Of a DNA stretch of 64,000 bases, positions 1-31,699 are shown piece by piece; position 1 is the stretch's first letter, and every line of letters begins with the position of its first letter. A model generated the notes under the pieces. That model had not been told where the DNA came from. It searched no databases and worked only from the letters and a program-made list of their open reading frames with translations. Source of the stretch: Escherichia coli (GTDB lineage Bacteria; Pseudomonadota; Gammaproteobacteria; Enterobacterales; Enterobacteriaceae); NCBI RefSeq assembly GCF_041248615.1, contig NZ_CP158426.1. One strand, written 5' to 3'. Both the position numbers and the translations under genes were made by a program.

Positions 1-72
1 GCCCATCACTTCAACAATCGTACTGTCCACCCCGGCAAGGGCGGCATCAAAGGCATTCTGAAAATCACGCAT
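1..72 (-). CDS. head-tail joining protein FII-like, first 24 codons only (gene continues beyond window start)
   Basis: minus-strand ATG at 72 just upstream of the FI stop; translation MRDFQNAFDAALAGVDSTIVEVMG resembles the lambda gpFII N-terminus; lambda gene order. Confidence 0.6.
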   Translation of the reverse strand, partial: MRDFQNAFDAALAGVDSTIVEVMG

Positions 73-439
73 AAACAGCCATTCCACCATCAACGTGTGT
101 TTTTGCATCTGAGGACATAATCAGAATCACCCGACCAACATCCGCAAGCTCAACGGATTCCCCCGTTTCACCATCAACGCCACAGAGATGGAGGCAGGTC
201 AGAACTCTGATGCGCGTTAACGCGCCGGATGTTTCCTCACGAACATCATGAGCCGCGGTTTCCCGCTCCCGGATATCCATATTCATAACCTGTACATCAT
301 CGCCGGATGACTGCATTTCCTCTTCCCATTCTGCCACCCGCTGCGCTATCTCTGCGGCACTCCCGGATATATCCGGCTCACGCCCCAGAATCAGGGCCAG
401 TTCATCAAGCCGTTTCAGATTTTGCTCTTTCGTTGCCAT
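65..439 (-). CDS. DNA-packaging protein FI-like
   Basis: ORF 65-487; probable start is the ATG at 439 (MATKEQNLKRLDELA...) preceded by AGGGGG; N-terminus resembles lambda gpFI; position between E and FII. Confidence 0.7.
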   Translation of the reverse strand: MATKEQNLKRLDELALILGREPDISGSAAEIAQRVAEWEEEMQSSGDDVQVMNMDIRERETAAHDVREETSGALTRIRVLTCLHLCGVDGETGESVELADVGRVILIMSSDAKTHVDGGMAVYA

Positions 440-450
440 ATCAGCCCCCT

Positions 451-481
451 GTGAAAAAAGACACGGGGGCATTTCGCCCCC
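451..481 (-). terminator. intrinsic-terminator-like hairpin between capsid gene E and FI
   Basis: on the minus strand a 6-bp GC stem (GGGGGC/GCCCCC) with 5-nt loop is followed by a T6 run, between the E stop and the FI ribosome-binding site. Confidence 0.45.
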
Positions 482-490
482 GCTCACGGA

Positions 491-1519
491 TTATTTCACC
501 TGTACCACCACAAACTCATCCGGGTCCGGCAACACCATCAGCGGCGCGGACTGCGTCATGGTAAATTCACGGGCGGGATCCCCTACCGTCAGCCAGTGTT
601 TCGGATAACGGGAAGAGGCCACCACACCTTCGGACAACGCCTGAGCATCCTGAATGGCACCGTAACAACGGATCCCATCTGCAGCAGTATTCCCCAGAAC
701 CAGCATGCCATCTGGAAGATAACGTTTTTCGATACCGTCTTCTGCTATATAAGACGTTTTCGCCACCACAATGGCCAGATCGCCGTAATACCCCTTGAAG
801 GACACCACTGCGCCCAGATCTTTCACTGCCGTTTCGAGTTGAGAATTTGAACCGCGACGGGTATCCAGTTTTTCGCGGAACAGCTTAAAACCATTCAGAA
901 GACGCCAGACGGTACCGTCCATAATGGCAATATTCACAAGACCGCTGGCCAGGTCGCAGTAGAGGTCAATATCATGTGTAGGATCGAACGTGTCACGATC
1001 CTGTTTTGACCACTCCTTACCACTACCCTGAGTGATGTTATTCTTCGTCGACCTGCCAAAATCGACCTCAATTTTCTCGAACTGGTCTCCTTCCATGGTG
1101 TATTTGCCATACAACACAGCATTTACCGCCTGCATTTCTTCCACCTGGACAATCGCGTGCTCTTCCTGTTTGAGGTTATCGGTAATGATACGCAGACGGC
1201 GGTAAGCCGGATCATTCAGTTGAGATGGATCTTCACCAGGAAGGCGCTCAACCGCCTGCTGGTAATTAAATTCGTGTTTCGGCTTGACGTAGCCCGGACG
1301 CAACACGCGGGTTTCACCACCACGATGACGCAGCACTTTTCCTTCAACAACCGGGGAGACATAGGCCGCCACCGGCGTTTTTCCGGTAATTTTGTCCAGC
1401 ATCACCTCTTCGGTATGGAAATTCACCGTACGGCGGAAAAACAGCTCCAGAAACAGCGCACGAAATTTAACTTTTTGTTCGGTATAACCGAGTAACTGGC
1501 GGGTCGTAAACAATCCCAT
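491..1519 (-). CDS. major capsid protein (lambda gpE family)
   Basis: 342-aa ORF, close to lambda gpE in length (my recollection) and motifs (YVKPKHE, KDLG, GDPAREFTM, SAPLM). Confidence 0.9.
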   Translation of the reverse strand: MGLFTTRQLLGYTEQKVKFRALFLELFFRRTVNFHTEEVMLDKITGKTPVAAYVSPVVEGKVLRHRGGETRVLRPGYVKPKHEFNYQQAVERLPGEDPSQLNDPAYRRLRIITDNLKQEEHAIVQVEEMQAVNAVLYGKYTMEGDQFEKIEVDFGRSTKNNITQGSGKEWSKQDRDTFDPTHDIDLYCDLASGLVNIAIMDGTVWRLLNGFKLFREKLDTRRGSNSQLETAVKDLGAVVSFKGYYGDLAIVVAKTSYIAEDGIEKRYLPDGMLVLGNTAADGIRCYGAIQDAQALSEGVVASSRYPKHWLTVGDPAREFTMTQSAPLMVLPDPDEFVVVQVK

Positions 1520-1550
1520 AAATCAGTTCCTTTCATTCAGAAATCAGTCA

Positions 1551-1566
1551 GGCCACCGCGGTGGCC
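1551..1566. repeat. perfect 16-bp palindrome GGCCACCGCGGTGGCC between D and E
   Basis: read directly in the D-E intercistronic region. Confidence 0.6.
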
Positions 1567-1576
1567 TGATAACGTG

Positions 1577-1924
1577 TTACGGCAGCGCCGCGTGACTCAG
1601 GGCACTGCCAGCAAAGGCGTTGGCCTTTTTGTGTTCATCCACACTTTCAGGCCAGTGGATTGCCTCCGTCGCAAAGGTTCCCGACTTGTAATACGTCAGC
1701 GCCGTCTCTGTGCCTTCAAGCGGCAGTACCAGTATGCCAACCGCACTACCGGCTTTCTGTCCGTCCCAGACCACCAGTTTCCCGGTGGCTTCATCCAGCA
1801 TCAGGGGCGTCAGTGCCGGTGTTGGCGAGGAAATCCCGCTGCTGCCTGTGGCGGTATGAGCCGGATCATTACCGGCAAAAATACGTACTTCCGCACGCTG
1901 TTCAGTGATGGTTTTCGTCACCAT
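1577..1924 (-). CDS. head decoration protein (lambda gpD family)
   Basis: 115-aa ORF with DPAHTAT, TPLMLD, WDG, YKSGTF motifs as in lambda gpD. Confidence 0.85.
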   Translation of the reverse strand: MVTKTITEQRAEVRIFAGNDPAHTATGSSGISSPTPALTPLMLDEATGKLVVWDGQKAGSAVGILVLPLEGTETALTYYKSGTFATEAIHWPESVDEHKKANAFAGSALSHAALP

Positions 1925-1960
1925 ATTGTAAAAACCTCCTATTGATGGTCAGCACTGACT

Positions 1961-3466
1961 TCATGGCATGGCCATGAGCATTTTCACGTCCGCATCACCG
2001 TCTGCTGACGTCTGTGCCACGCCACCCTGTACCGCTGCCGGTGAATGGTTCGCCATGAAATGTTCAAACATGGCGGTTGTGGATGCAGAGACCGGTTCTG
2101 CCTTACCTGATCCCGCAGCCAGCACAGCCCGGGCGCTCTCCACTGTCATTCCCGGGCAGGCAGCCAGCTGTTCAGCCTGCGCCTCAGCCCCTTTTGCCTC
2201 ATCCAGTGCCATGATCTGATCACGGAGTGATGGTCCGGCATCCGCCTGCGGTGAAGCAGCCAGGATCGGGCGGGCTTTTTCCACCGTCATCTCCGGCATC
2301 GCCGCCAGCGTTGCCGCCAGTTGTTCACGACCGTTCGCTTCTTCACACGCCATAATGCGATCGGCTTCACTCTGCGTGGATGCCACCGGCTGCTGCGGTG
2401 CCGCCGCGGCCAGAATCGCCCGGGCCTGTTCAACGCTCATGCCCTGTTGTCCTGCCAGCATCGTGGCAAGCTGTTCACGTCCTTTCGCTTCCTGGCATGT
2501 CAGGATCCCCATCACTCGCTGGTTCTCCTGCGCGGCGGCTTCCGTTGCAGTTAATTGCGGCATAGTGCCTCCTCTGACATTACTGTTCAGCGCCGTGGCC
2601 ATCACACTGATGGCATCCGACGCATTGATTAATTCATCCGCCAGCCCGGCCTCAATGCCGGACTGACCTTCAAAAACGGCAGCCTCTGTTCCCGTGACGG
2701 CATCAACAGACAGACCGGTATACATCGCCACTTTTTCGGCAAACATCCGGCGCGCCGCATCAATCCGCTGCTGCATGTCCTGGCGAACCTCTGCCGGCAA
2801 CGCTTCAAACTGATTGCCATCCACCTTGTGCGCCCCTGAGTAAATCAGCGTGATATCCACACCGGCCTGCGCCAGATGACCGGCATAGCTGACATGGCTC
2901 ATCATCACGCCAATGGAGCCGATACGGGATGTCTGGGTAACCAGCCGTCGGGAGCAGGCCGACGCCAGCAGCATGGCTGCAGAACAGGCCGTGTCATTGC
3001 ACAGTGCCCAGACCGGCTTCTGCTGACGGAGGCGGTAAATCATGTCAGCGCAGTCAAACGCGCCGGCGGCCTGCCCGCCCGGACTGTCAATGTCCAGCAG
3101 TACGCCCCGCACCTGGCTATCCGCCATTGCCTGCTGAAGACAGGCGACAATGCCGTCATAGCCTGTCATTCCGGAAAATGGCCGCATACCACCCAGCCGG
3201 TGCACCAGCGTGCCGGTCACCGGCAGTACAGCAATACCGTTCACCACCCGGTAAACACGGGCCGGTCGTTTACCTCCGGCCATGTACTCGTCCGTTTCAG
3301 CCAGCATTCCGGGAGCATCAAACTGTACCTGCTGTTGTGGTACCGAAAGACTTGCTGCCCCCATCTCGCGCCCGAGCGCGCAAAAGAAAACCCGCGCATA
3401 GGCGGGCTCCAGAAGCAGCGGTTCATTGAATGCTGCGGCAATAATGTGTGAAAGATTACGTCTCAC
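1961..3466 (-). CDS. head maturation protease / scaffold (lambda gpC with in-frame Nu3-like C-terminal part; ClpP/S49 peptidase fold)
   Basis: 501-aa ORF between portal and D; S49-type core; C-terminal third contains three ~45-aa tandem repeats. Confidence 0.8.
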   Translation of the reverse strand: MRRNLSHIIAAAFNEPLLLEPAYARVFFCALGREMGAASLSVPQQQVQFDAPGMLAETDEYMAGGKRPARVYRVVNGIAVLPVTGTLVHRLGGMRPFSGMTGYDGIVACLQQAMADSQVRGVLLDIDSPGGQAAGAFDCADMIYRLRQQKPVWALCNDTACSAAMLLASACSRRLVTQTSRIGSIGVMMSHVSYAGHLAQAGVDITLIYSGAHKVDGNQFEALPAEVRQDMQQRIDAARRMFAEKVAMYTGLSVDAVTGTEAAVFEGQSGIEAGLADELINASDAISVMATALNSNVRGGTMPQLTATEAAAQENQRVMGILTCQEAKGREQLATMLAGQQGMSVEQARAILAAAAPQQPVASTQSEADRIMACEEANGREQLAATLAAMPEMTVEKARPILAASPQADAGPSLRDQIMALDEAKGAEAQAEQLAACPGMTVESARAVLAAGSGKAEPVSASTTAMFEHFMANHSPAAVQGGVAQTSADGDADVKMLMAMP

Positions 3467-5251: not shown

Positions 5252-7205
5252 TCACTCCTCCGGACAGCTTCGCTGCCAGTTCTTTAAGGGTTGGCCGGGT
5301 CGTCTCTTCTTCCCGGGATTTTGCCAGTACAGCCAGATCAAGCTGCCAGCGTTGCACGGACACACGTAATGCCGCGTAGGCATACACCAGGCAGTCCAGC
5401 GCTTCGTTACGCCGCTTTTTGTTATCCCACAGCAGACGCATCTTTCCTTTTTCCCACTTCTCCACAAGCTCTTCCGCGACCAGTTGCTGCGCCTCTGTCT
5501 GCGAAAAAATCTCCGGATCATCAGGAAAACGGATAGCATACGACGTGGCTTCATCCACAGGCGTGGGATCGGCTTTCATACGGGCATAGAGAATTTCTTT
5601 TGCGGTGTCCGTCCCCACTTCACACAGATACACGCCCCGCTGATTGCGGGTTTTTGGCATGGTGATCACCGGCTTGCCATAGACAGATGCGCCTTTTACC
5701 GGCAGCACCCGGAAAACACCGTGTTTTTTTGACCTCTGATAAACGATTTCGCCATCGATCCCCCCGATGTCCCAGCAGACACGGGAAATGGTCATTTCGG
5801 TTCCGTCTGCATGGCGGTATTTTTTGTTGATCGCCGCATCCACACGTAACAGCGTCTCTTCCTCATCGGGACGCCCCATAATGATGATTTTATCCACCAG
5901 AAAGGCTTCCTCTCCCGGAGCCCATCCCCAGACATACATCTCAAAACGGTTTCGCTGCGAGTCAATGCCCGCCGTCAGATAAACCACCCGGGCAGGCACC
6001 GCCGCCGTGTAACGCACAACCTTATCCATCAGCACCTGGTGATCGAGTTTTTCGCCCACAGCCTCTTCCCAGGTCTCGCCCAGCGTGGTGTTCACAAAGG
6101 TTTTCAGGCCGTTGGGATCTTTCAGTGCATCCAGCCAGTCATAGACAATCTGTACCCAGGTGGTGAACGGACTGTACGCCGTCCAGATATGGAAAGTGAT
6201 GGAGCGCGGCGGCGGAATTTCATCACCCCGGGCGCTGAAAAACATCAGGCCGTCACGGGTCCACATGCCCGTGTTTTCACAGATCCACCGCCCGTTACTC
6301 TGGTCAAGCTCAGACTGATGGATCACACAGCCATGATGCTCACAAAGGTAGAAAACACTTTCTGGCTTATTCTTCTCCCACTTAAGACCGAAAGGCGAGG
6401 CATCATCGCCAAATTTCAGATACTGCTCCTCCCCACAGTGCGGACAGGGCACATAAAAACGCATGAAGTGTGCCGACTCGTTAGCGGCTTTTTCGATCTG
6501 GCAGGAGCCTTTGATTTTAGGCGTCGAGCCGCGAATGGATTTTGGCCATACAGAGCCCTCAATACGTTTATCCCCCAGCAGGGTTGGCGAACCCTCTTTT
6601 TCAACATCCGGTTCGAACGAGGAAAGCTCGTCATAACAGACCACATCCACGGATTTTTCACGGTAGTTTTTTGCTGCCGCACCACCCAGACACCAGAACC
6701 CCACACCGGAGGAAAAACGCTTCAGGGTGAGCGTATTATCGCGGTGTTTTCTTCCGAACCATGGAGCCAGCTCCAGCAATGCAGGAACATCCCTTATCGT
6801 TGGCTCAACATGAGATTTCATAAAATCTTCAGCAGCTGAGTCCGTGGGCTGAAAAAGAAGGCTGTTGCGTGATTTATGCTCAATAAAATAAGCCTCCACT
6901 CCCAGCAACATCTTTGTATAACCAACACGGGCAGATTTAATCAGGTTAACCGTGCGAATCAGATCGTTGCCCATACAGTTCATGATGCCAACCTGAAACG
7001 GCAGTGTTTCCCATCGCCCCGGGGTATAAGACGACTCTTTAGGAAGGTAATAATGTTTATTGGCCCACTGAACTGTCGTCAGTGGAACAGGAATAATGAG
7101 AGATAAAAGCCCTGTAGCTATCGCACCGGCTGCATTAGCTGCCTTCTGCGCGTCTGAAATCATCGATCCACCCGCCCACGTTTTCACCGGCCTTAGCTGC
7201 AACAT
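5235..7205 (-). CDS. terminase large subunit (lambda gpA family)
   Basis: 656-aa ORF; motifs [43 protein letters not shown] as in lambda gpA. Confidence 0.9.
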
Positions 7206-10231: not shown

Positions 10232-10725
10232 TGCTGACCCCACAAACAGATTTCACGCTCAATCTCACGACGAGTCATGAGACCTTTCCATTGCTTACCG
10301 CCAGCATATGTCCAGCGACGTAGCTGATCACATGCGCCTTTGATATCGCCCTGGTTTATTTTGCGAAGAAGCGTCGATGTTCTGAAATTGCCAGCACCCA
10401 CGTTGTAAACGAATGAGTAAAGAGCGCCGCGCATTGTTTCCGGTATATCGACTTTGATGTACGGGTTAATTTGTCTGGCGACCGTGGCAAGGTCTTTATT
10501 CAGGAGGGCTTTGCATTCTGCTTTGGTATACGTTTTACCGAGCATGATGTCTTTTCCTGTATGCCCGTGACATACAGTCCATACACCAACAATATCTTTG
10601 TATGGTATGTAGCTGACACCTTCCAGACCATCGTTACCACTTGGGCCAGTGATTAACACTGATGCTATAGCAATTGCTCCGCCACCAATAGCAGCAGCAA
10701 CGGCTTTTCGTAATGATGGAGGCAT
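10228..10725 (-). CDS. SAR endolysin (phage 21 R21 type, T4-lysozyme fold)
   Basis: 165-aa [30 protein letters not shown]... (signal-anchor-release N-terminus) with lysozyme motifs, matching phage 21 R as I recall it. Confidence 0.9.
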
Positions 10726-10940
10726 TATTCACCTCTCGCAGCCTTGCGCTTATCTTCTTTAATCTTGAAATAAAGGTTTGTCAGGTACGTCAGCAGGCCA
10801 AATACCAGGCTACCCAGCACACCTATTGCCGCCCACTGTGAGGGCGTGACTTTATCGAGCAACTGTAAAAACCAGTACCCGGCACTACCTGCTGAGGTAC
10901 CATAGGCGACACCCGTTGTTAACTTATCCATGGATTTCAT
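10725..10940 (-). CDS. pinholin (phage 21 S21 type)
   Basis: 71-aa ORF with two TM segments and charged C-terminus, directly upstream of the SAR endolysin. Confidence 0.85.
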
Positions 10941-11528
10941 AACCCCACCTCGCAGACAAAGCGGGTGTAAATTAAGGGGATACTACGTATCGCAATAAAG
11001 GCAGAAACGTAACAGATTCGGAGTCAGTGAATAACTCAGGTATTGGGTTATCAGCTAATATCGAGACTCAAAAAATGGAAAAACCCGCTCGACGGCGGGT
11101 TTAAGCTGTGTGACGAAGTAACCACTCTTAACAGCATAACCAATTTTTTACGTACGTAAACTACTAAATGATATTTGTGAGAATGCCACCGAGTGTTCAA
11201 AACACCACCACAAATGCATAAGAAAACTTCAACAAATAACCAGTTAATAATTTCCGATGTTATTTTTAGTTTGTTTAAATTAAGCTAAAGAATTATAGAG
11301 CACTTATAAATAAGTGCCATTAATATAAATTAGCTAATAGATTTATTTTTGTTCAGACAAGAGCCATGAATAGGATTAGATAGAAAAGGTTCAGATAAAA
11401 ATAGAGATCTACTTCACAAATTAAATGAGAAACTAAAACTTACATCTTGAAATAATCACATTGATTAGATGAATATTTATCGCGCAGTGACATCATTTTT
11501 TAATAATAGTTCAAAAAAAGGGCGTACA

Positions 11529-12611
11529 ATGAAAAAATTAACAGTGGCAATTTCTGCTGTAGCTGCATCAGTACTGATGGCGATGTCTGCTCAGGCAGCT
11601 GAAATTTATAATAAAGACAGTAACAAGCTGGATCTATACGGGAAAGTTAATGCCAAGCACTACTTCTCCTCTAATGATGCAGATGATGGTGATACTACTT
11701 ATGCCCGTCTTGGCTTCAAAGGTGAAACCCAAATCAACGATCAACTGACTGGTTTCGGTCAGTGGGAATATGAATTCAAAGGCAACCGTGCTGAATCTCA
11801 AGGTTCTTCCAAAGACAAAACCCGTCTTGCATTTGCAGGCCTGAAATTTGGTGATTACGGCTCAATCGATTACGGCCGTAACTACGGTGTAGCATACGAC
11901 ATCGGTGCGTGGACTGACGTTCTGCCAGAATTCGGTGGTGATACCTGGACCCAAACAGATGTGTTCATGACTGGTCGCACTACTGGTGTTGCAACTTATC
12001 GTAACAACGACTTCTTTGGTCTGGTCGATGGCCTGAACTTTGCTGCTCAGTATCAGGGTAAAAATGACCGCACTGACGTAACTGAAGCCAATGGTGATGG
12101 TTTCGGTTTCTCCACTACTTATGAGTATGAAGGATTCGGCGTGGGTGCAACCTATGCTAAATCAGATCGCACTGACGGTCAGGTCGCCTATGGTAAGAGC
12201 AAATTCAATGCCTCCGGCAAAAATGCGGAAGTATGGGCTGCAGGCCTGAAATATGATGCGAACAATATCTATCTGGCTACCACATATTCTGAAACTCAGA
12301 ATATGACCGTTTTTGGTAATAACCATATTGCAAACAAAGCACAAAACTTTGAAGCAGTAGCACAATATCAGTTTGACTTCGGTCTGCGTCCATCTGTTGC
12401 TTACCTTCAGTCAAAAGGTAAAGACCTTGGTGTTCATGGTGACCGAGACTTAGTCAAGTATGTCGATGTCGGTGCTACTTACTACTTTAATAAAAACATG
12501 TCCACTTTTGTTGATTACAAAATCAACTTAATTGACGATAGTAAGTTTACCAAAACAGCTGGTATTGATACCGACGACATCGTCGCTGTAGGTCTGGTTT
12601 ATCAGTTCTAA
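11529..12611 (+). CDS. OmpC/OmpF-family outer-membrane porin (prophage moron, NmpC/Lc type)
   Basis: ORF 11469-12611; start [23 protein letters not shown] at 11529 (signal peptide); porin motifs and C-terminal VGLVYQF; preceded by ~350 bp of AT-rich DNA; opposite in orientation to the late operon. Confidence 0.85.
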
Positions 12612-12630
12612 TCTGACTTACGAAAAAGAT

Positions 12631-12660
12631 ATGTTGCGGGAGGCTTTGCCTCCGCAACAT
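12631..12660 (-). terminator. hairpin with T-run on the minus strand; candidate late-operon tR'
   Basis: imperfect 12-bp stem ATGTTGCGG(G)AGG / CCTCCGCAACAT; on the minus strand it is followed by ATCTTTTT. Confidence 0.4.
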
Positions 12661-12749
12661 ATAAGTGGAGCCCTCAAGCCACTTCCTTTAGAAGCACTAC
12701 CTTGCTTCTTACTATATAAACCTTCTGTTATATATTACCCTTTATTTTG

Positions 12750-12776
12750 GGGGCGTTTCCACGCCCCATTTTTAAT
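12750..12776 (+). terminator. intrinsic terminator downstream of the porin gene
   Basis: stem GGGGCGT/ACGCCCC with loop TTCC followed by ATTTTTAAT on the plus strand. Confidence 0.5.
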
Positions 12777-12799
12777 AACTTTTAGTAAACAATTGCATA

Positions 12800-13183
12800 T
12801 CAATTAGAATTATTAGCAACGATATCCATATCTAACCGGATATCTAATGCCATTAACATCCCTTCAATTATGCCCTCAGCCTTCTGTAACCTTTTCCCGA
12901 TATAACCATCCGAGCAGCAATGCTTACTTGCCAGTGACATGAATGTCATACCACATACATAATAATCTACTAATAAATCGTGTAAATCGCTGTTGTTCTT
13001 TTTCAGACGGGCCATGCACCCGCAAATGATCATCGCGTCATCGTCACAACATTGCGGGCGAGATTTTACTTTTGAAGGAATTAATCCCTTAAAACCGGCG
13101 GCAATGGACGACCAGGTCACATCTTCATGATTATTAGCCGCCCACGCACCCCAACGCTCAAGAACCATCTGAATATCACGCAT
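12800..13183 (-). CDS. late antiterminator Q (DLP12 QuuD / phage 21 type)
   Basis: ORF 12800-13198; start [21 protein letters not shown] at 13183 gives 127 aa, matching QuuD-type Q as I recall it. Confidence 0.85.
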
Positions 13184-13268
13184 CAACTTACTCCACAAAA
13201 ATCAGACCAGAACGCCAATTACAAGCAAAAATCAACAAAACAGTATTAGTTGATTGTTATCTCTGACT

Positions 13269-13391
13269 TCATACTCCTGTTCCTGTCAGGGTTTTGGCGT
13301 AATTCTTCAGTATTCGGTAATCGGTCAAAACAGAACCGAGGAAACGATATAAGCGCAGACGCCCCCAGCGGTGGCGAAGAAGTTCTGCCAT
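13269..13391 (-). CDS. small YlcG-like ORF between rusA and Q
   Basis: 40-codon minus-strand ORF MAELLRHRWGRLRLYRF... starting 14 nt after the rusA stop; below the ORF-track length cutoff; resembles DLP12 ylcG from memory. Confidence 0.4.
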   Translation of the reverse strand: MAELLRHRWGRLRLYRFLGSVLTDYRILKNYAKTLTGTGV

Positions 13392-13405
13392 ATTAAACTC
13401 AAACA

Positions 13406-13768
13406 TCATTCATTCCCCATTTCGGTGATGGTCAGTTCCAGCCTCCCACCTTTGGTAACAGGCATCTTCACAACGCGGTAATCAACGACCTGAGCATCAT
13501 CCAGCCAGAAACCTGCTTTAGTGAGTGCGTCAAAAGCGGCTTTTTGCAGATTATCCAGGTCACGGCGACGGCGATCCGGCATGTGGCACTCAATGCGGAT
13601 TTTCACAGGCATAGCCAGGCCGATATCCAGCATTGCGTTTTTAATGATTCGGGCGACGTTATCGCGGTATGCCTGCCCCTCTGCGCTGACGTGCGTGCGC
13701 CCGCGATTATGGCGGTAATAGCGATTATTGCTCGGAGGCCAGGGTAATGTGATGCTGTAGGTATTCAC
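13406..13768 (-). CDS. rusA: Holliday-junction resolvase RusA
   Basis: 120-aa ORF; RusA-family motifs; position between nin genes and Q. Confidence 0.9.
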
Positions 13769-13974
13769 GCCTTAATAACCCCCTCTTTCAGCCACATAAC
13801 CTGTGTTCTCGCCATACCTTCCAGCGCGCATTCTTTTGCATATGCAGCATCGACTTGCTTGGCATGCCCTTTACCGGCAATCTTCTGTATGCGCTAAACC
13901 TAGATAGAATCCACTCTGTGCACATTGAAGCCCGCTCTATGCTTTCTTTCAGGTATTGAAGGGATTGAGATGGG

Positions 13975-14358
13975 CTAAGCATTATTGGCCTCCTGCATCA
14001 GGAGAAAGACAATCATGGCGGCGCGGAGAGGTCTGGTATCAAATATTGGGCTTACGCCTTTTGCATCCACACACCATTCAGTTAACTGGTCTAAGATAGA
14101 AATCCTGTATTTCTCAATAATCGGCCATGAAGCGCTCGGATCATTGCAGTAGTCAGGCAAATGATTTAATGGCTCAAAAGTTGTATCAGCATTTCCGTAA
14201 TACCATTTGTTGGTGTTATTCCCTGATGTTTCCGGTTTACTTGCCCAAAGGCCTTTAAAAATTATGTCTCCTACCATTCTGTTAATTTCAAAATCACTTA
14301 ACTGTGAATAATCCATTGTCATTTCCTCGCACGATATCTTAGCCACCGGATATCCCAC
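13975..14358 (-). CDS. hypothetical nin-region phage protein
   Basis: 127-aa ORF in operon context; start uncertain (MTMDYSQL... possible); no family assigned. Confidence 0.5.
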
Positions 14359-27097: not shown

Positions 27098-28285
27098 ATG
27101 ACCACTTTTACTAAAGAACAATTAATAGAGATGATTAAGCGCAATATAACGGTTATGGATCGTTATCCTGATTTAGTAACTGCACAAATGGATCTGGAAG
27201 TATACAAAATTGCGCTGGCATCACTGGAAGCAGAACCAGTTGCTTATATTTTCAAACATCCGGCCGGGAAATTATTCTGGGCTTTAACGGATGAAAGCAA
27301 TAAAGAGCAACCGGACGTTATTCCTGTTTATGCTGACTCACCTGCGCCGGTTGTGCCGGATGAAATAGACGTAAACGATGTGCCAAGGGCGGTGACATAT
27401 TTCAAGACACACAGAGATTGTTACGCAGATGGCTGGAACGCCTGCCGCGCCGCCATGCTTCAGTCCGGAAACTTTCGGGAAAACAAGAATTCGTCAACCA
27501 ATAATTTTCGGGAAATCGCGGAAACGTCAACCAACTATCCGGTAATTCCTAGTGAGGTGTTGTCCGCAATCCAGAAGGTTGCCAAGATTCGTGCCGATTT
27601 CGATGATTTTGACGGTGACAGGCGAGGTATCGGTGATTGTCTGGATGAGGCTGAGCAAGAGCTTATCGTTACCATTAACAAATATGCCAGTCAGTTGGCA
27701 GCAGAACCTATAGCGCCTAATGACGTTCGAGAGCAGCAGACAGCCGTTCCGCCAGTTCCAGAAATACAGGCTGATGTCGCGCAAGCAATTGAAAATCTCA
27801 AGCAGAAGTTAGTGGAATGCAATCGCTATAACTACTGTGCAGATGCAGTTAAAGGCGTAGAGGATGCCTGCCGTGCTGTTAGCTATAGCCAAGCCGACAA
27901 TCAGCCAGCATCTGGCAACCAGGCTGCCGAATCCAATCGCGATAATGAGTGGACTGGCAATCCTGATATTGATAACGCCATCATCATGCTCGACCGCATA
28001 GATACGCTGGAAAATTGCGATGATGACCGTATTGAGGCTGTTAAGGCTGTTTTGCGTAGACTGGCTGGCAACTATCCGGTAACTCCGGATAGTTGGATAA
28101 GCTGTAGTGAGCGAATGCCCGCTCAAGATGATTGGATTTTAATTTATTCAAAGCACGGCGAGTATATGGCAGGACAGGTACAAGGGGAATACGTGGAGTT
28201 GAGCGACGGCACTTTATCGTGGTTAGGGAACGCCTTGTACTGGATGCCTCTACCAGAACCGCCGAAGGAGGTTAACCGTGGCTAA
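27098..28285 (+). CDS. hypothetical phage protein with C-terminal DUF551-like domain
   Basis: 395-aa ORF; C-terminal WISCSERMPAQDDWILIYSKHGEYMAG typical of DUF551 from memory. Confidence 0.5.
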   Translation: MTTFTKEQLIEMIKRNITVMDRYPDLVTAQMDLEVYKIALASLEAEPVAYIFKHPAGKLFWALTDESNKEQPDVIPVYADSPAPVVPDEIDVNDVPRAVTYFKTHRDCYADGWNACRAAMLQSGNFRENKNSSTNNFREIAETSTNYPVIPSEVLSAIQKVAKIRADFDDFDGDRRGIGDCLDEAEQELIVTINKYASQLAAEPIAPNDVREQQTAVPPVPEIQADVAQAIENLKQKLVECNRYNYCADAVKGVEDACRAVSYSQADNQPASGNQAAESNRDNEWTGNPDIDNAIIMLDRIDTLENCDDDRIEAVKAVLRRLAGNYPVTPDSWISCSERMPAQDDWILIYSKHGEYMAGQVQGEYVELSDGTLSWLGNALYWMPLPEPPKEVNRG

Positions 28286-28562
28286 CCTGCAACTTGCCGT
28301 CAAAGGTGAATACTTCGATGCCATGATTCGCGGAGAGAAAACGGAAGAGTATCGCCTGTGTAATGACTACTGGAAAAAGCGCCTCGTTAACCGTAAGCAT
28401 GACCGCCTGATTATCACAAAGGGATATCCGAAGCGCGACGATTCCAGCCGCAGAGTTGATGTTCCGTATGACGGATATGAAGTGAAGACAATCACACATC
28501 CGCACTTCGGTGATAAACCGGTAAAGGTATACGCGATAAAGGTAAATATCGGCACTGAATAA
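28278..28562 (+). CDS. hypothetical protein
   Basis: 94-aa ORF. Confidence 0.5.
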   Translation: MANLQLAVKGEYFDAMIRGEKTEEYRLCNDYWKKRLVNRKHDRLIITKGYPKRDDSSRRVDVPYDGYEVKTITHPHFGDKPVKVYAIKVNIGTE

Positions 28563-28587
28563 CAATCCGCACAACACAAGGTCAAGA

Positions 28588-28827
28588 ATGTTCAGAGTGA
28601 TTTACCCTAACACCTGGTACGTCGACCACCACGGCACTCCCTGCAAAATCCTGCGTTCCACTCACAACAAAGCTCACTACATCCGAAAAGGCAGAACATG
28701 TATCGCCAGCATGTTCCGCTTTAATCATGACTTTGAACCTGTGAATAAAGCTGACGCAGATCGGATAGCTGAAGAGATCGAAACAGCAGAACACATTAAG
28801 AAGTTACGTGCCATACGCAGGAAATAG
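28588..28827 (+). CDS. hypothetical protein
   Basis: 79-aa ORF. Confidence 0.45.
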   Translation: MFRVIYPNTWYVDHHGTPCKILRSTHNKAHYIRKGRTCIASMFRFNHDFEPVNKADADRIAEEIETAEHIKKLRAIRRK

Positions 28828-28966
28828 AAAAATTGATAAATTCAATACTGCATTTCTCAGCATTAAATTTATCTCTATGACCAGTCAAGAGATGTACCTG
28901 CCATGAGCTTAATATCATGTCAGATATATCGGTCACAAACTCCCTCAGCAGCTAAGAGGAGGACAA

Positions 28967-29203
28967 ATGTCTCGACTAATCACTTTACAGGACTGGGCTA
29001 AAGAAGAATTTGGGGACTTAGCACCAAGTGAGCGAGTTCTGAAAAAATACGCGCAAGGGAAAATGATGGCCCCACCCGCTATAAAAGTTGGTCGCTACTG
29101 GATGATTGACCGAAATTCCCGTTTTGTAGGAACGCTTGCAGAACCGCAACTCCCAATAAACGCAAACCCAAAACTCCAACGGATAATCGCTGATGGCTGC
29201 TAG
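28967..29203 (+). CDS. xis: excisionase
   Basis: 78-aa ORF overlapping the int start; Xis/AlpA-like KVGRYWMI motif. Confidence 0.75.
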   Translation: MSRLITLQDWAKEEFGDLAPSERVLKKYAQGKMMAPPAIKVGRYWMIDRNSRFVGTLAEPQLPINANPKLQRIIADGC

Positions 29204-30335
29204 ACCCCGATCTCACAAAATCTCTATACCCAATTTATATTGCAAATTAGATAAGCGAACCGGAAAGGTATATTGGCAATACAAACATCCACTATCCGGT
29301 CGTTTTCATAGCTTAGGAACTGATGAGAATGAAGCAAAACAAGTTGCTACTGAAGCAAATACCATTATTGCTGAACAACGTACCCGACAAATATTAAGCG
29401 TCAATGAGCGTCTAGAAAGAATGAAAGGCAGGCGCTCAGACATTACGGTGACAGAATGGCTTGATAAATATATTTCTATCCAGGAGGACAGGCTGCAACA
29501 TAATGAACTAAGACCCAACTCCTATCGGCAAAAAGGCAAACCCATTCGTCTTTTCCGTGAGCATTGTGGAATGCAACACCTCAAGGATATTACCGCACTT
29601 GATATTGCCGAAATAATTGATGCTGTAAAGGCTGAAGGTCATAACAGGATGGCGCAAGTCGTGAGAATGGTGTTGATCGACGTCTTCAAAGAAGCACAAC
29701 ACGCAGGACATGTTCCGCCAGGATTTAACCCAGCGCAGGCAACAAAACAACCGCGAAATCGAGTAAACCGCCAAAGATTATCACTGCCCGAATGGCAGGC
29801 AATATTTGACAGCGTAAGCAGACGGCAGCCCTATTTAAAATGCGGGATGCTACTTGCTCTTGTCACTGGACAACGTTTAGGCGATATCTGCAATTTGAAA
29901 TTCTCTGATATCTGGGACGACATGTTGCACATTACTCAGGAAAAAACCGGTTCAAAACTTGCTATTCCGCTTAACCTGAAATGCGATGCTCTGAATATTA
30001 CCCTTCGTGAAGTTATATCTCAGTGCAGGGATGCTGTTGTTAGTAAATATCTGGTCCATTACCGTCACACTACCTCTCAAGCAAACAGAGGAGACCAGGT
30101 GTCTGCAAATACTCTTACAACGGCTTTTAAAAAGGCCAGGGAAAAATGTGGCATAAAATGGGAGCCAGGAACTGCGCCCACATTTCATGAGCAGCGATCT
30201 CTGTCAGAACGGTTATATCGGGAACAGGGTCTGGATACGCAAAAGTTGTTAGGTCATAAATCCAGAAAAATGACCGACCGATACAATGATGATCGTGGTA
30301 AAGACTGGATTATCGTAGATATCAAAACAGCATAG
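29193..30335 (+). CDS. int: tyrosine integrase (e14/phage 21 icd-targeting type)
   Basis: 380-aa ORF with C-terminal catalytic region (HEQRSL...LGHKSRKMTDRY); adjacent to the icd 3' end. Confidence 0.9.
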   Translation: MAARPRSHKISIPNLYCKLDKRTGKVYWQYKHPLSGRFHSLGTDENEAKQVATEANTIIAEQRTRQILSVNERLERMKGRRSDITVTEWLDKYISIQEDRLQHNELRPNSYRQKGKPIRLFREHCGMQHLKDITALDIAEIIDAVKAEGHNRMAQVVRMVLIDVFKEAQHAGHVPPGFNPAQATKQPRNRVNRQRLSLPEWQAIFDSVSRRQPYLKCGMLLALVTGQRLGDICNLKFSDIWDDMLHITQEKTGSKLAIPLNLKCDALNITLREVISQCRDAVVSKYLVHYRHTTSQANRGDQVSANTLTTAFKKAREKCGIKWEPGTAPTFHEQRSLSERLYREQGLDTQKLLGHKSRKMTDRYNDDRGKDWIIVDIKTA

Positions 30336-30345
30336 AAAATAGCCA

Positions 30346-30382
30346 GTTTTGGGGAAGGGTTTTGGGGAAAGTTTTGGGGAAG
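30346..30382 (+). repeat. three tandem 12-13-bp direct repeats GTTTTGGGGAAG next to int
   Basis: units start at 30346, 30359 and 30371, between the int stop and the icd terminator; candidate arm-type Int binding sites. Confidence 0.5.
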
Positions 30383-30402
30383 ATTTTACATCATCATAAA
30401 AC

Positions 30403-30425
30403 AACGGGCGTGTTATACGCCCGTT
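30403..30425 (-). terminator. icd intrinsic terminator
   Basis: stem ACGGGCG/CGCCCGT with 7-nt loop; on the minus strand it is followed by TTGTTTTATGATG. Confidence 0.7.
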
Positions 30426-30448
30426 ACAATATTTAACACATGTAGTGA

Positions 30449-31699
30449 TTACATATTCTTGATGATCGCATCACCAAACTCTGAACATTTCAGCAGCTTA
30501 GCGCCTTCCATCAGACGTTCGAAGTCATAGGTTACGGTCTTCGCATTGATTGCGCCTTCCATACCTTTAACAATCAGGTCTGCGGCTTCAGTCCAGCCCA
30601 TATGGCGCAGCATCATCTCAGCGGAGAGAATAATAGAGCCAGGGTTAACTTTGTCCTGACCGGCATATTTCGGCGCAGTACCGTGGGTGGCTTCAAACAG
30701 GGCGCATTCGTCACCGATGTTTGCGCCTGGGGCGATACCGATACCGCCGACCTGTGCAGCCAGAGCGTCAGAAATGTAGTCACCGTTCAGGTTCATACAG
30801 GCGATAACATCATATTCAGCCGGACGCAGCAGGATCTGTTGCAGGAATGCATCAGCAATCACATCTTTAATGACGATCTCTTTGCCGGTATTCGGGTTTT
30901 TAACTTTCAGCCACGGGCCGCCGTCGATCAGTTCACCGCCAAACTCTTCACGCGCCAGCTGGTAGCCCCAGTCTTTAAACGCGCCTTCGGTGAACTTCAT
31001 GATGTTGCCTTTGTGCACCAGGGTCACAGAGTCACGATCGTTAGCAATTGCGTATTCGATCGCGGCACGGACCAGACGTTTGGTGCCTTCTTCAGAACAC
31101 GGCTTAATACCGATACCGCAATGTTCCGGGAAGCGAATTTTCTTCACGCCCATCTCTTCACGCAGGAATTTAATCACTTTCTCGGCGTCGGCAGAGTCAG
31201 CTTTCCATTCGATACCCGCATAAATGTCTTCCGAGTTTTCACGGAAGATAACCATATCGGTCAGTTCAGGATGTTTAACCGGGCTTGGGGTGCCCTGATA
31301 GTAACGTACCGGACGCAGGCAGATGTAGAGATCCAGTTCCTGGCGCAGGGCAACGTTCAGAGAACGAATACCGCCACCAACCGGAGTGGTCAGAGGGCCT
31401 TTAATGGCAACGCGATATTCACGAATCAGATCAAGGGTTTCAGCAGGCAGCCAGACATCCTGACCATAAACCTGTGTGGATTTTTCACCGGTGTAAATTT
31501 CCATCCAGGAGATTTTACGCTCGCCTTTATAGGCTTTCTCGACTGCAGCGTCGACCACTTTCAGCATGGCTGGGGTTACATCTACACCGATTCCATCACC
31601 TTCAATGTAAGGGATAATCGGATTTTCAGGAACGTTGAGTTTGCCGTTTTGCAGGGTGATCTTCTTGCCTTGTGCCGGAACAACTACTTTACTTTCCAT
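30449..31699 (-). CDS. icd: isocitrate dehydrogenase (NADP), with prophage-associated 3' end
   Basis: 416-aa ORF, full-length Icd; C-terminal residues ...[20 protein letters not shown]. Confidence 0.95.

What the first reader, a model, noticed from the sequence alone, without database searches (positions are those of the whole stretch)
445..1566. Structured intercistronic elements flanking the major capsid gene
A perfect 16-bp palindrome GGCCACCGCGGTGGCC lies between D and E. A canonical terminator-like hairpin with a T6 run lies between the E stop and the FI ribosome-binding site. The latter could act as a partial terminator or attenuator that keeps downstream packaging and tail genes at lower stoichiometry than the capsid protein.
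Basis: seen in the sequence. Interest (0 to 1): 0.3.

Follow-up and report, generated by a model that had tools for sequence, protein, structure and literature searches.

The report
Conserved hairpins flanking phage capsid gene
Two small RNA hairpins sit just after the decoration-protein gene and just after the major capsid gene of a phage-21-type prophage; they are real, conserved and of a well-known terminator-like kind, so the finding is sound but ordinary.

Summary
Both structures exist, on the minus (coding) strand of a prophage whose head genes are identical to phage 21. The D-E palindrome is a 22-nt perfect palindrome (1548-1569). The E-FI hairpin is 463-483, with its T6 run at 454-459, four bases past the stem. 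Each folds at -16.8 kcal/mol with pair probabilities of about 0.95-1.0 in context. Neither matches any Rfam family, and neither is repeated in the window.

They are under selection. The 37-nt E-FI element is about ten times less variable than synonymous sites in E. Most stem changes keep pairing through G.U, which works only in the sense-strand RNA. Lambda has unrelated hairpins at the same two positions. Nearly every phage examined with a lambda-E-type capsid gene has a hairpin directly after it, often without a U tract.

The attenuator reading is only partly supported:
- The late operon is transcribed by Q-loaded polymerase, which is reported to block terminator hairpins.
- The D-E hairpin has no U tract.
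- The abundant tail protein V is encoded downstream.

My best reading is terminator-class gene-end hairpins that are read through during lytic growth and then protect the D and E message segments. They may also stop polymerases that lack Q. No RNA data were available. This is a known kind of element and of low interest.

The parts
1577..1924 (-). D / shp head-decoration gene (115 aa)
   Evidence: ORF list. Pfam PF02924 HDPD, E = 1.2e-24. Identical to phage 21 shp.
1548..1569 (-). D-E hairpin: perfect 22-nt palindrome UCAGGCCAC-CGCG-GUGGCCUGA. It starts 8 nt after the D stop codon. The helix can extend to 1543-1573 with one bulge.
   Evidence: -16.8 kcal/mol and inner pair probability 1.0. Unique in the window. 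In 80 relatives the stem is kept and the centre varies, as a loop would.
1520..1547 (-). A/U-rich leader of E with its Shine-Dalgarno AGGA (1528-1531)
   Evidence: The phage 21 record annotates the ribosome-binding site. This stretch stays with E when the upstream D allele and its hairpin are replaced, as in L056.
491..1519 (-). E / gene 7 major capsid protein (342 aa)
   Evidence: Pfam PF03864 Phage_cap_E, E = 6e-64. 62% identical to lambda E. 100% identical to phage 21 gene 7.
463..483 (-). E-FI hairpin GCGGGGGC-GAAAU-GCCCCCGU. It starts 7 nt after the E stop codon.
   Evidence: -16.8 kcal/mol and pair probability about 0.95. 73 of 80 relatives are identical, and all four distinct stem substitutions give G.U pairs.
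452..462 (-). Tail after the hairpin, GUCUUUUUUCA, containing the U6 run (454-459)
   Evidence: Read directly from the sequence. It is conserved together with the hairpin: diversity of the 37-nt element is 0.013, against 0.144 at E third codon positions.
445..449 (-). FI Shine-Dalgarno GGGGG
   Evidence: Phage 21 annotation. This segment is highly variable among relatives, with diversity 0.10. That rules out a conserved alternative hairpin that would sequester the Shine-Dalgarno sequence.
65..439 (-). FI-type DNA-packaging gene (124 aa; ATG at 439..437)
   Evidence: Pfam PF14000 Packaging_FI, E = 2.8e-16. Corresponds to ORF1 of M81255.

Best explanation
These are two conserved hairpins in the late messenger RNA that close the D and E cistrons of a phage-21-type head operon. 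They are local versions of a hairpin that follows the capsid gene in almost every phage examined with a lambda-E-type capsid protein.

Structurally they belong to the intrinsic-terminator class. The E-FI element is a hairpin plus a U6 run. The D-E element is a hairpin only.

The late operon is transcribed by Q-loaded RNA polymerase, which does not allow terminator hairpins to form at the polymerase. During lytic growth the hairpins should therefore be mostly read through. They would then fold in the finished message and most likely act as blocks to 3'-to-5' exonucleases. After cleavage downstream, the D and E segments would outlast the rest of the transcript. On polymerases that lack Q, for example stray transcription in a lysogen, the E-FI element should terminate.

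Shown here: the structures, their conservation, their specificity for the sense-strand RNA, and their linkage to the upstream gene. Inferred: read-through under Q and message stabilisation.
For: - Stable compact hairpins form in context.
- Purifying selection on E-FI. The 37-nt element has diversity 0.013, against 0.144 at E third codon positions, 0.294 at FI third positions and 0.019 at E first and second positions. The identical element occurs with 16 different E-end and 9 different FI-start haplotypes.
- In the lambda family the D-E hairpin plus T7 has diversity 0.006, against 0.036-0.066 at third positions.
- Across four hairpins in 160 loci, eight distinct stem substitutions keep pairing as G.U and five do not. 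Of those five, three only open the loop-closing pair, one is at the outermost pair and one is internal. G.U pairing works only in the sense RNA.
- Lambda, mEp237, 705R4 and two Vibrio phages have different hairpin sequences at the same two positions. Ten of 11 capsid-downstream gaps and 7 of 8 D-E gaps fold better than shuffles.
- All 22 distinct capsid-downstream gaps in Chi-like phages carry a GC hairpin, many without a U tract.
- Each hairpin travels with the upstream gene. The E-FI hairpin is constant across FI alleles that are 76-80% identical, and a divergent D allele (L056) carries a different hairpin.
- A Q gene lies upstream, and Q prevents terminator hairpins from forming.
- Terminator hairpins are described as protecting mRNA 3' ends from exonucleases, and processing of operon transcripts as uncoupling expression within operons (PMC3997798).
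Against: - No RNA 3'-end, half-life or abundance data were available for this phage or for lambda. The key papers are not in the library.
- The major tail gene V, also highly expressed, has no hairpin after it, and the low-copy J gene is flanked by two. So 'hairpin means abundant product' is not a rule.
- In the 21-type family the U run is conserved together with the E-FI hairpin. That fits a true terminator unit better than a plain exonuclease block.
- The hairpins start 7-8 nt after the stop codons, so terminating ribosomes would transiently melt them.
- From memory, not verified here: Sampson et al. 1988 attributed lambda late-protein ratios mainly to translation initiation. That would leave only a modest role for message stability.
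Confidence: 0.4

Rival explanations
1. Partial terminator or attenuator during lytic growth. A fraction of late transcripts ends at the E-FI hairpin, and perhaps at D-E, which lowers the dose of downstream genes.
For: - The E-FI element has a GC stem followed by a U-rich tail with 6 U in the first 8 nt, and it tops the terminator-like scan.
- The hairpin and the U run are conserved as a unit.
- A relative's GenBank record annotates the D-E hairpin as a rho-independent terminator (mEp237).
- T7-like phages and SPP1 have terminators directly after the capsid gene.
Against: - Q-loaded polymerase is termination-deficient, and the stems are short. In one other antitermination system only extraordinarily long stems resisted it.
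- The D-E tail is CUGAUUUC, with 1 U in the first 4 nt.
- Many relatives keep the hairpin without a U tract.
- V, needed in high copy, is encoded downstream.
- The terminator-like pattern is common by chance: 27 found against 12.3 expected in 12 kb.
Confidence: 0.2
2. Safety terminators for polymerases that lack Q. In the lysogen, or early in infection, they stop stray or read-in transcription from expressing the strongly translated capsid genes and what follows. Q-loaded polymerases ignore them.
For: - The concept is documented for operons with processive antitermination and many internal terminators (PMC8955417; PMC10325885).
- Four hairpins punctuate the phage 21 late operon, and two of them are annotated as terminators.
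- Most D-E hairpins in relatives have strong U tracts: lambda, mEp237, 705R4, K245 and L056.
Against: - The 21-type D-E hairpin lacks a usable U tract, yet it is the predominant conserved form, present in 76 of 80 loci.
- Chi-like phages, which I take from memory to be virulent with no lysogenic state, keep the post-capsid hairpin.
- Capsid proteins are not known to be toxic.
Confidence: 0.15
3. Translation-related elements. The hairpins insulate the ribosome-binding regions of E and FI from upstream structure, or uncouple translation of neighbouring cistrons. The U-rich stretch would serve as a landing site for the ribosome.
For: - Each hairpin is followed by an A/U-rich stretch and then the next gene's Shine-Dalgarno sequence.
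- The predicted unpaired probability around the two start codons is slightly above the context mean: 0.44-0.47 against 0.39-0.40.
Against: - The hairpins co-vary with the upstream gene, not the downstream one.
- The FI Shine-Dalgarno region next to the conserved element is highly variable.
- The alternative pairing that would sequester the Shine-Dalgarno sequence is weaker (-12.2 against -16.8 kcal/mol) and not conserved.
Confidence: 0.1
4. A DNA-level feature or a neutral remnant: a protein-binding palindrome, a recombination linker at a mosaic boundary, or a leftover terminator from an exchanged module.
For: - The D-E element is a perfect DNA palindrome containing restriction-type sites.
- Both gaps coincide with mosaic junctions.
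- An IS200-type element has inserted beside the D-E hairpin position in one relative.
Against: - The palindrome's centre varies freely (CGCG, CGCGT, CATG, CACG).
- Stem variants give G.U pairs, which would be mismatches in DNA or on the other strand.
- Diversity far below synonymous sites argues against neutrality.
- There are no other copies in the window.
Confidence: 0.05

Closest known systems
Lambda's own D-E and E-FI intergenic hairpins (NC_001416, about 6100-6122 and 7163-7180)
   Same: Same two positions in a syntenic C-D-E-FI head operon, the same size class, and followed by pyrimidine- or U-rich tails. They are conserved in 80 lambda-type loci.
   Different: The sequences are unrelated. 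In lambda the D-E hairpin has the strong U7 tract and the E-FI tail is variable. In the 21 type it is the reverse.
Rho-independent terminator annotated between D and E of phage mEp237 (NC_019704, 5938-5958)
   Same: Same position, and a hairpin of the same class (AAAAGCCGC-UUGC-GCGGCUUUU).
   Different: It has a canonical U tract, which the window's D-E hairpin lacks. The annotation is a prediction, not an experiment.
Terminators directly after the major capsid gene in T7-like phages (LUZ100, compared with T7) and predicted in SPP1
   Same: A stem-loop immediately downstream of the capsid gene, proposed to set capsid expression apart from later genes.
   Different: Those operons are not read by a Q-type antiterminated host polymerase, and T7-like phages use their own polymerase. 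Termination there is measured or predicted with a U tract.
Internal terminators in operons under processive antitermination (pLS20 conAn system)
   Same: Many hairpin terminators inside a long operon that are bypassed by a modified polymerase. They are proposed to limit spurious transcription and to allow differential expression.
   Different: A Gram-positive conjugation operon with a different antiterminator. No test was made here.
Intercistronic mRNA-stabilising hairpins (papBA, pufBA, REP in malEFG; recalled from memory; general principle in PMC3997798)
   Same: A stable hairpin at the 3' end of the cistron whose product is needed in excess, inside a polycistronic message (for the principle).
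   Different: Segmental stability is not shown here. The elements are single-copy and not REP-like.

Membership tests
Intrinsic (rho-independent) terminator | GC-rich stem-loop on the transcribed strand (stem of 5 or more bp, loop of 3-8 nt) just downstream of a gene | tested here: met
   D-E has 9 Watson-Crick pairs and a 4-nt loop. E-FI has 7 Watson-Crick pairs plus one G.U pair and a 5-nt loop. Both fold at -16.8 kcal/mol.
Intrinsic (rho-independent) terminator | U-rich tract directly 3' of the stem: E-FI element | tested here: inconclusive
   The tail is UGUCUUUUUU, with 2 U in the first 4 nt and 6 in the first 8. The U6 run is offset by 4 nt. The run is conserved in relatives.
Intrinsic (rho-independent) terminator | U-rich tract directly 3' of the stem: D-E element | tested here: not met
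   The tail is CUGAUUUCUG, with 1 U in the first 4 nt. Relatives with other D-E hairpins do have U7-type tracts.
Intrinsic (rho-independent) terminator | Generates transcript 3' ends on the polymerase that actually transcribes it | not testable with these tools
   No RNA data were available. The literature says Q-loaded polymerase prevents terminator hairpins, and a Q gene is present.
Post-capsid-gene hairpin of lambda-E-type (PF03864) head modules | Stable hairpin between the capsid gene's stop codon and the next gene's Shine-Dalgarno sequence, more stable than composition-matched shuffles | tested here: met
   Window p = 0.024. Ten of 11 divergent phages have p <= 0.024. All 22 distinct Chi-like gaps have one.
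REP or other dispersed intergenic repeat | Multiple related copies in the genome | tested here: not met
   Each hairpin sequence occurs once in the 64-kb window, even allowing 2-3 mismatches.
RNase III processing site | Roughly 20 bp or more of near-continuous duplex (criterion from general knowledge) | tested here: not met
   The helices are 8-9 bp, or at most 13 bp with a bulge.
Translational operator that sequesters the Shine-Dalgarno sequence | Conserved alternative pairing that covers the downstream Shine-Dalgarno sequence | tested here: not met
   CCCCCGUG/CACAGGGGG folds at -12.2 kcal/mol, against -16.8 for the main hairpin. The Shine-Dalgarno arm varies freely in relatives.
Any curated Rfam RNA family | Covariance-model match at the gathering score | tested here: not met
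   There are no matches in the window at gathering score. At E up to 10 there are only chance-level hits with E about 7.

The most novel reading that the evidence does not exclude
The 37-nt E-FI element (spacer, hairpin, loop and U run) may be a sequence-specific signal rather than a generic hairpin. Candidates are a pause or termination site that works even on Q-loaded polymerase, or a binding site for a phage or host protein. The reason to consider this is that the element is more conserved than the non-synonymous positions of the capsid gene, across 16 E-end and 9 FI-start haplotypes.
Probability: 0.1. Interest if true: 0.55.

Novelty: new member of a known kind. Interest (0 to 1): 0.2.

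Why it matters
If the hairpins do stabilise the D and E message segments, they would add a post-transcriptional layer to the classic picture in which lambda-type late-protein ratios are set by translation initiation. They would also explain why a hairpin follows the capsid gene across a whole capsid family, with or without a U tract. In practice the result improves annotation: neither phage 21 GenBank record marks these elements. It also gives phage engineers a small conserved part to keep when swapping head genes. It does not change current understanding of late-gene control.

Tried and rejected
- Rfam at gathering score and at a permissive E-value found nothing.
- A dispersed repeat or REP element is ruled out, since both hairpins are single-copy.
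- An RNase III site is ruled out, since the helices are too short.
- A switch that sequesters the Shine-Dalgarno sequence between two hairpins sharing the C5 run is ruled out. The alternative is weaker and not conserved.
- A longer FI reading frame starting at the GTG inside the gap (65-487) is ruled out. In relatives the GTG is lost (GGG) and the T-run length varies.
- A raw folding-energy scan of the late operons was not discriminating. Many imperfect hairpins inside genes score equally well. I replaced it with a perfect-stem count.
- L027 was first taken as an independent D-E hairpin. It turned out to be the end of an inserted IS200-type element.
- Within-subgroup covariation in Chi-like hairpins was weak: one compensatory pair.
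- The promoter-like match in the C-D gap (1952..1925) overlaps D's ribosome-binding spacer, and such matches are no more frequent than chance.
- Literature. Liu 2013, Sampson 1988 and Casjens & Hendrix 2015 are not held. The EHEC Term-seq paper has no supplement held. Several full-text searches for lambda late-mRNA 3'-end or stability data returned nothing relevant.
- Tandem-repeat and tRNA scans of the window were negative.

Full report
**Context**

The window's first 7.9 kb are 99.99% identical to the phage 21 head and terminase region, read on the minus strand. The gene order on that strand is portal, C/Nu3-type protease-scaffold (1961-3466), D/shp (1577-1924), E/gene 7 (491-1519), then FI (65-439). 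Pfam confirms HDPD, Phage_cap_E, Packaging_FI and Peptidase_S49. E is 62% identical to lambda E.

Further right the prophage carries lysis genes, a PF06530 Q antiterminator (12800-13198, minus strand), replication genes and an integrase region matching phage 21's. The two elements therefore lie inside a Q-dependent late operon.

**Checking the observation**

The palindrome is real and larger than described. TCAGGCCACCGCGGTGGCCTGA (1548-1569) is a perfect 22-mer starting 8 nt after the D stop codon. A 16-bp perfect palindrome is expected about once per 64 kb. The 22-bp one is expected 0.017 times, and it is the only zero-spacer palindrome with arms of 8 or more in the window.

The E-FI hairpin is GCGGGGGC-GAAAU-GCCCCCGU (483..463), 7 nt after the E stop codon. 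It is followed by GUCUUUUUUC, then the FI Shine-Dalgarno sequence and the ATG at 439. The U6 run is offset from the stem, so the element is terminator-like rather than canonical.

Both cores fold at -16.8 kcal/mol and dominate the ensemble in a 301-nt context. Both gaps fold better than shuffles.

A plain energy scan is not discriminating, because GC-rich coding sequence gives many equally stable imperfect hairpins. Compact perfect stems, however, are concentrated in the gaps. Four of the nine in the 21.7-kb phage 21 late operon fall in its 311 non-coding bases, one in each of the four gaps longer than 50 nt: D|E, E|FI, I|J and J|stf. The curated phage 21 record marks the last two as terminators but leaves D|E and E|FI unannotated. 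Neither hairpin matches an Rfam family, and neither is repeated elsewhere in the window.

**Conservation within close relatives**

I compared 80 viral contigs with 94% or higher amino-acid identity to this E protein. The 37 nt of spacer, hairpin and U run after E have nucleotide diversity 0.013. The comparison values are 0.144 at E third codon positions, 0.294 at FI third positions and 0.019 at E first and second positions. The adjacent FI Shine-Dalgarno segment is variable, at 0.10.

High-frequency polymorphisms run through E up to 12 nt before its stop codon and resume at the Shine-Dalgarno sequence. The identical element occurs with 16 E-end and 9 FI-start haplotypes. The D-E gap is also less variable than neighbouring synonymous sites, and the variation it has sits in the centre of the palindrome, as expected for a loop.

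In 80 lambda-type loci the D-E hairpin plus T7 has diversity 0.006, against 0.036-0.066 at third positions. The E-FI stem is kept there while its tail varies.

Over the four hairpins in the two families I counted 20 distinct substitutions:
- Seven are in loops.
- Eight are in stems and keep pairing as G.U.
- Five are nominally disruptive. Three of these only open the loop-closing pair, one is at the outermost pair, and one is internal.

G.U-compatible changes would be A.C mismatches on the other strand or in DNA. The selected structure is therefore in the sense RNA.

**Conservation across distant relatives**

Lambda has unrelated hairpins at the same two positions: AAAGGCCGC-CUGU-GCGGCUUUU+U, and AUGGCCC-UUCG-GGGCCAU. 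In 12 divergent phages with this capsid family, 10 of 11 capsid-downstream gaps and 7 of 8 testable D-E gaps fold better than shuffles. Chi-like phages have almost no D-E gap. In 34 Chi-like contigs, all 22 distinct capsid-downstream gaps carry a GC hairpin of -11 to -23.5 kcal/mol with many different stems, and only some have a U tract. Covariation inside subgroups is slight.

The hairpins travel with the upstream gene. The E-FI hairpin is unchanged across FI alleles only 76-80% identical. A divergent D allele (L056) brings a lambda-like hairpin with a U tract, while E's 28-nt leader stays the same. A second apparent replacement (L027) is in fact the end of an IS200-type insertion.

**Mechanism**

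- Q-loaded polymerase is described as pausing- and termination-deficient over tens of thousands of nucleotides, because it prevents pause and terminator hairpins from forming. In one other antitermination system, resistance needed extraordinarily long stems.
- The D-E hairpin lacks a U tract and precedes the most abundant product.
- V, also abundant, lies downstream and has no hairpin of its own, while low-copy J is bracketed by two.

The family-wide retention of the hairpin without the U tract points to a role of the RNA hairpin itself. The established role for such 3' structures is protection from 3' exonucleases, and processing of operon transcripts can uncouple expression within an operon. 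I therefore favour gene-end hairpins that are read through under Q and then stabilise the D and E segments.

Termination of polymerases lacking Q is a likely second role for the E-FI element. The conserved U run in the 21-type E-FI element and the T7 tract in lambda's D-E element keep the terminator readings alive. Safety terminators inside antiterminated operons are a documented idea. Translation-insulation and DNA-level readings fit the data less well, as set out under the rival explanations. None of this could be tested against RNA data.

**Comparison with known elements and novelty**

The closest relatives are lambda's own two hairpins and the D-E hairpin that the mEp237 record annotates as a rho-independent terminator. 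By analogy they resemble the terminators directly after the capsid gene in T7-like phages and SPP1.

As intrinsic terminators, the E-FI element meets the stem criterion and only partly the U-tract criterion. The D-E element fails the U-tract criterion. Activity is untested. These are unannotated members of a known kind.

The one mildly surprising result is how strongly the whole 37-nt E-FI element is conserved. That leaves a small chance of a sequence-specific function.

**Verdict**

The element is of a known kind, and interest is low.

Noticed in passing
window 11469-12611 (+), with 12800-13198 (-) and 10725-10940 (-): A Gram-negative porin gene (PF00267, E = 2e-151) lies on the opposite strand between the Q antiterminator gene and the holin-like gene. 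It sits in a stretch (about 10941-14310) that has no match to phage 21.
   Followed up: partly
window 11320..11292 (-) and 11102..11081 (-): The best promoter-like site (ATGGCA-17-TATAAT) and a strong terminator-like hairpin with a U tract lie about 210 nt apart on the late strand, just upstream of the lysis genes. The arrangement resembles a pR'-tR' unit of the kind Q acts on.
   Followed up: no
window 1961-3466 (-): The C/Nu3-type protease-scaffold protein contains three protein-level repeats of about 35 aa (..EAKGREQLA..M[ST]VE.AR.[IV]LAA..). The old phage 21 record annotates them as 'Tri boxes' of unknown function. Tandem Repeats Finder sees nothing at DNA level.
   Followed up: partly
L027 1-440 (IMGVR_UViG_2654587509_000011): An IS200-type transposase gene ends just upstream of E. 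The junction with phage sequence is 7 nt past the normal D-E hairpin position, and the element's own terminal hairpin (CCUCCGGC-UAU-GCCGGAGG) takes its place.
   Followed up: partly
L175 (phage 21) 15651-15670 and 19195-19212, outside the window: Two further compact hairpins flank the J tail-fibre gene (I|J and J|stf). Lambda has a near-identical I|J hairpin that differs in the loop (UCCG against UGCG).
   Followed up: partly
L056 about 1380-1500 (IMGVR_UViG_643348551_000006): A D allele roughly 80% identical to this one carries a lambda-like GCCGC/GCGGC hairpin with a long U tract instead of the 21-type palindrome. The hairpin has therefore been swapped within the D21 lineage.
   Followed up: partly
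window 28279-30612 and beyond: The integrase/excisionase region matches phage 21 at 97%. Phage 21's record places attP next to an icd-like fragment. Sequence to the right of about 30.6 kb has no phage 21 match and is presumably host chromosome. It was not examined.
   Followed up: no
window 307-564 (+): An 85-aa proline-rich ORF lies antisense to FI and E and spans the E-FI gap. It is probably an artefact of the GC-rich opposite strand.
   Followed up: no
bioRxiv 10.1101/651190: The preprint lists the same Pfam accession (PF06530) for both the Q21/Q933W family and the Q82 family. The Pfam hit alone therefore does not say which Q family the window's Q belongs to. Its region does not match phage 21 DNA.
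   Followed up: no
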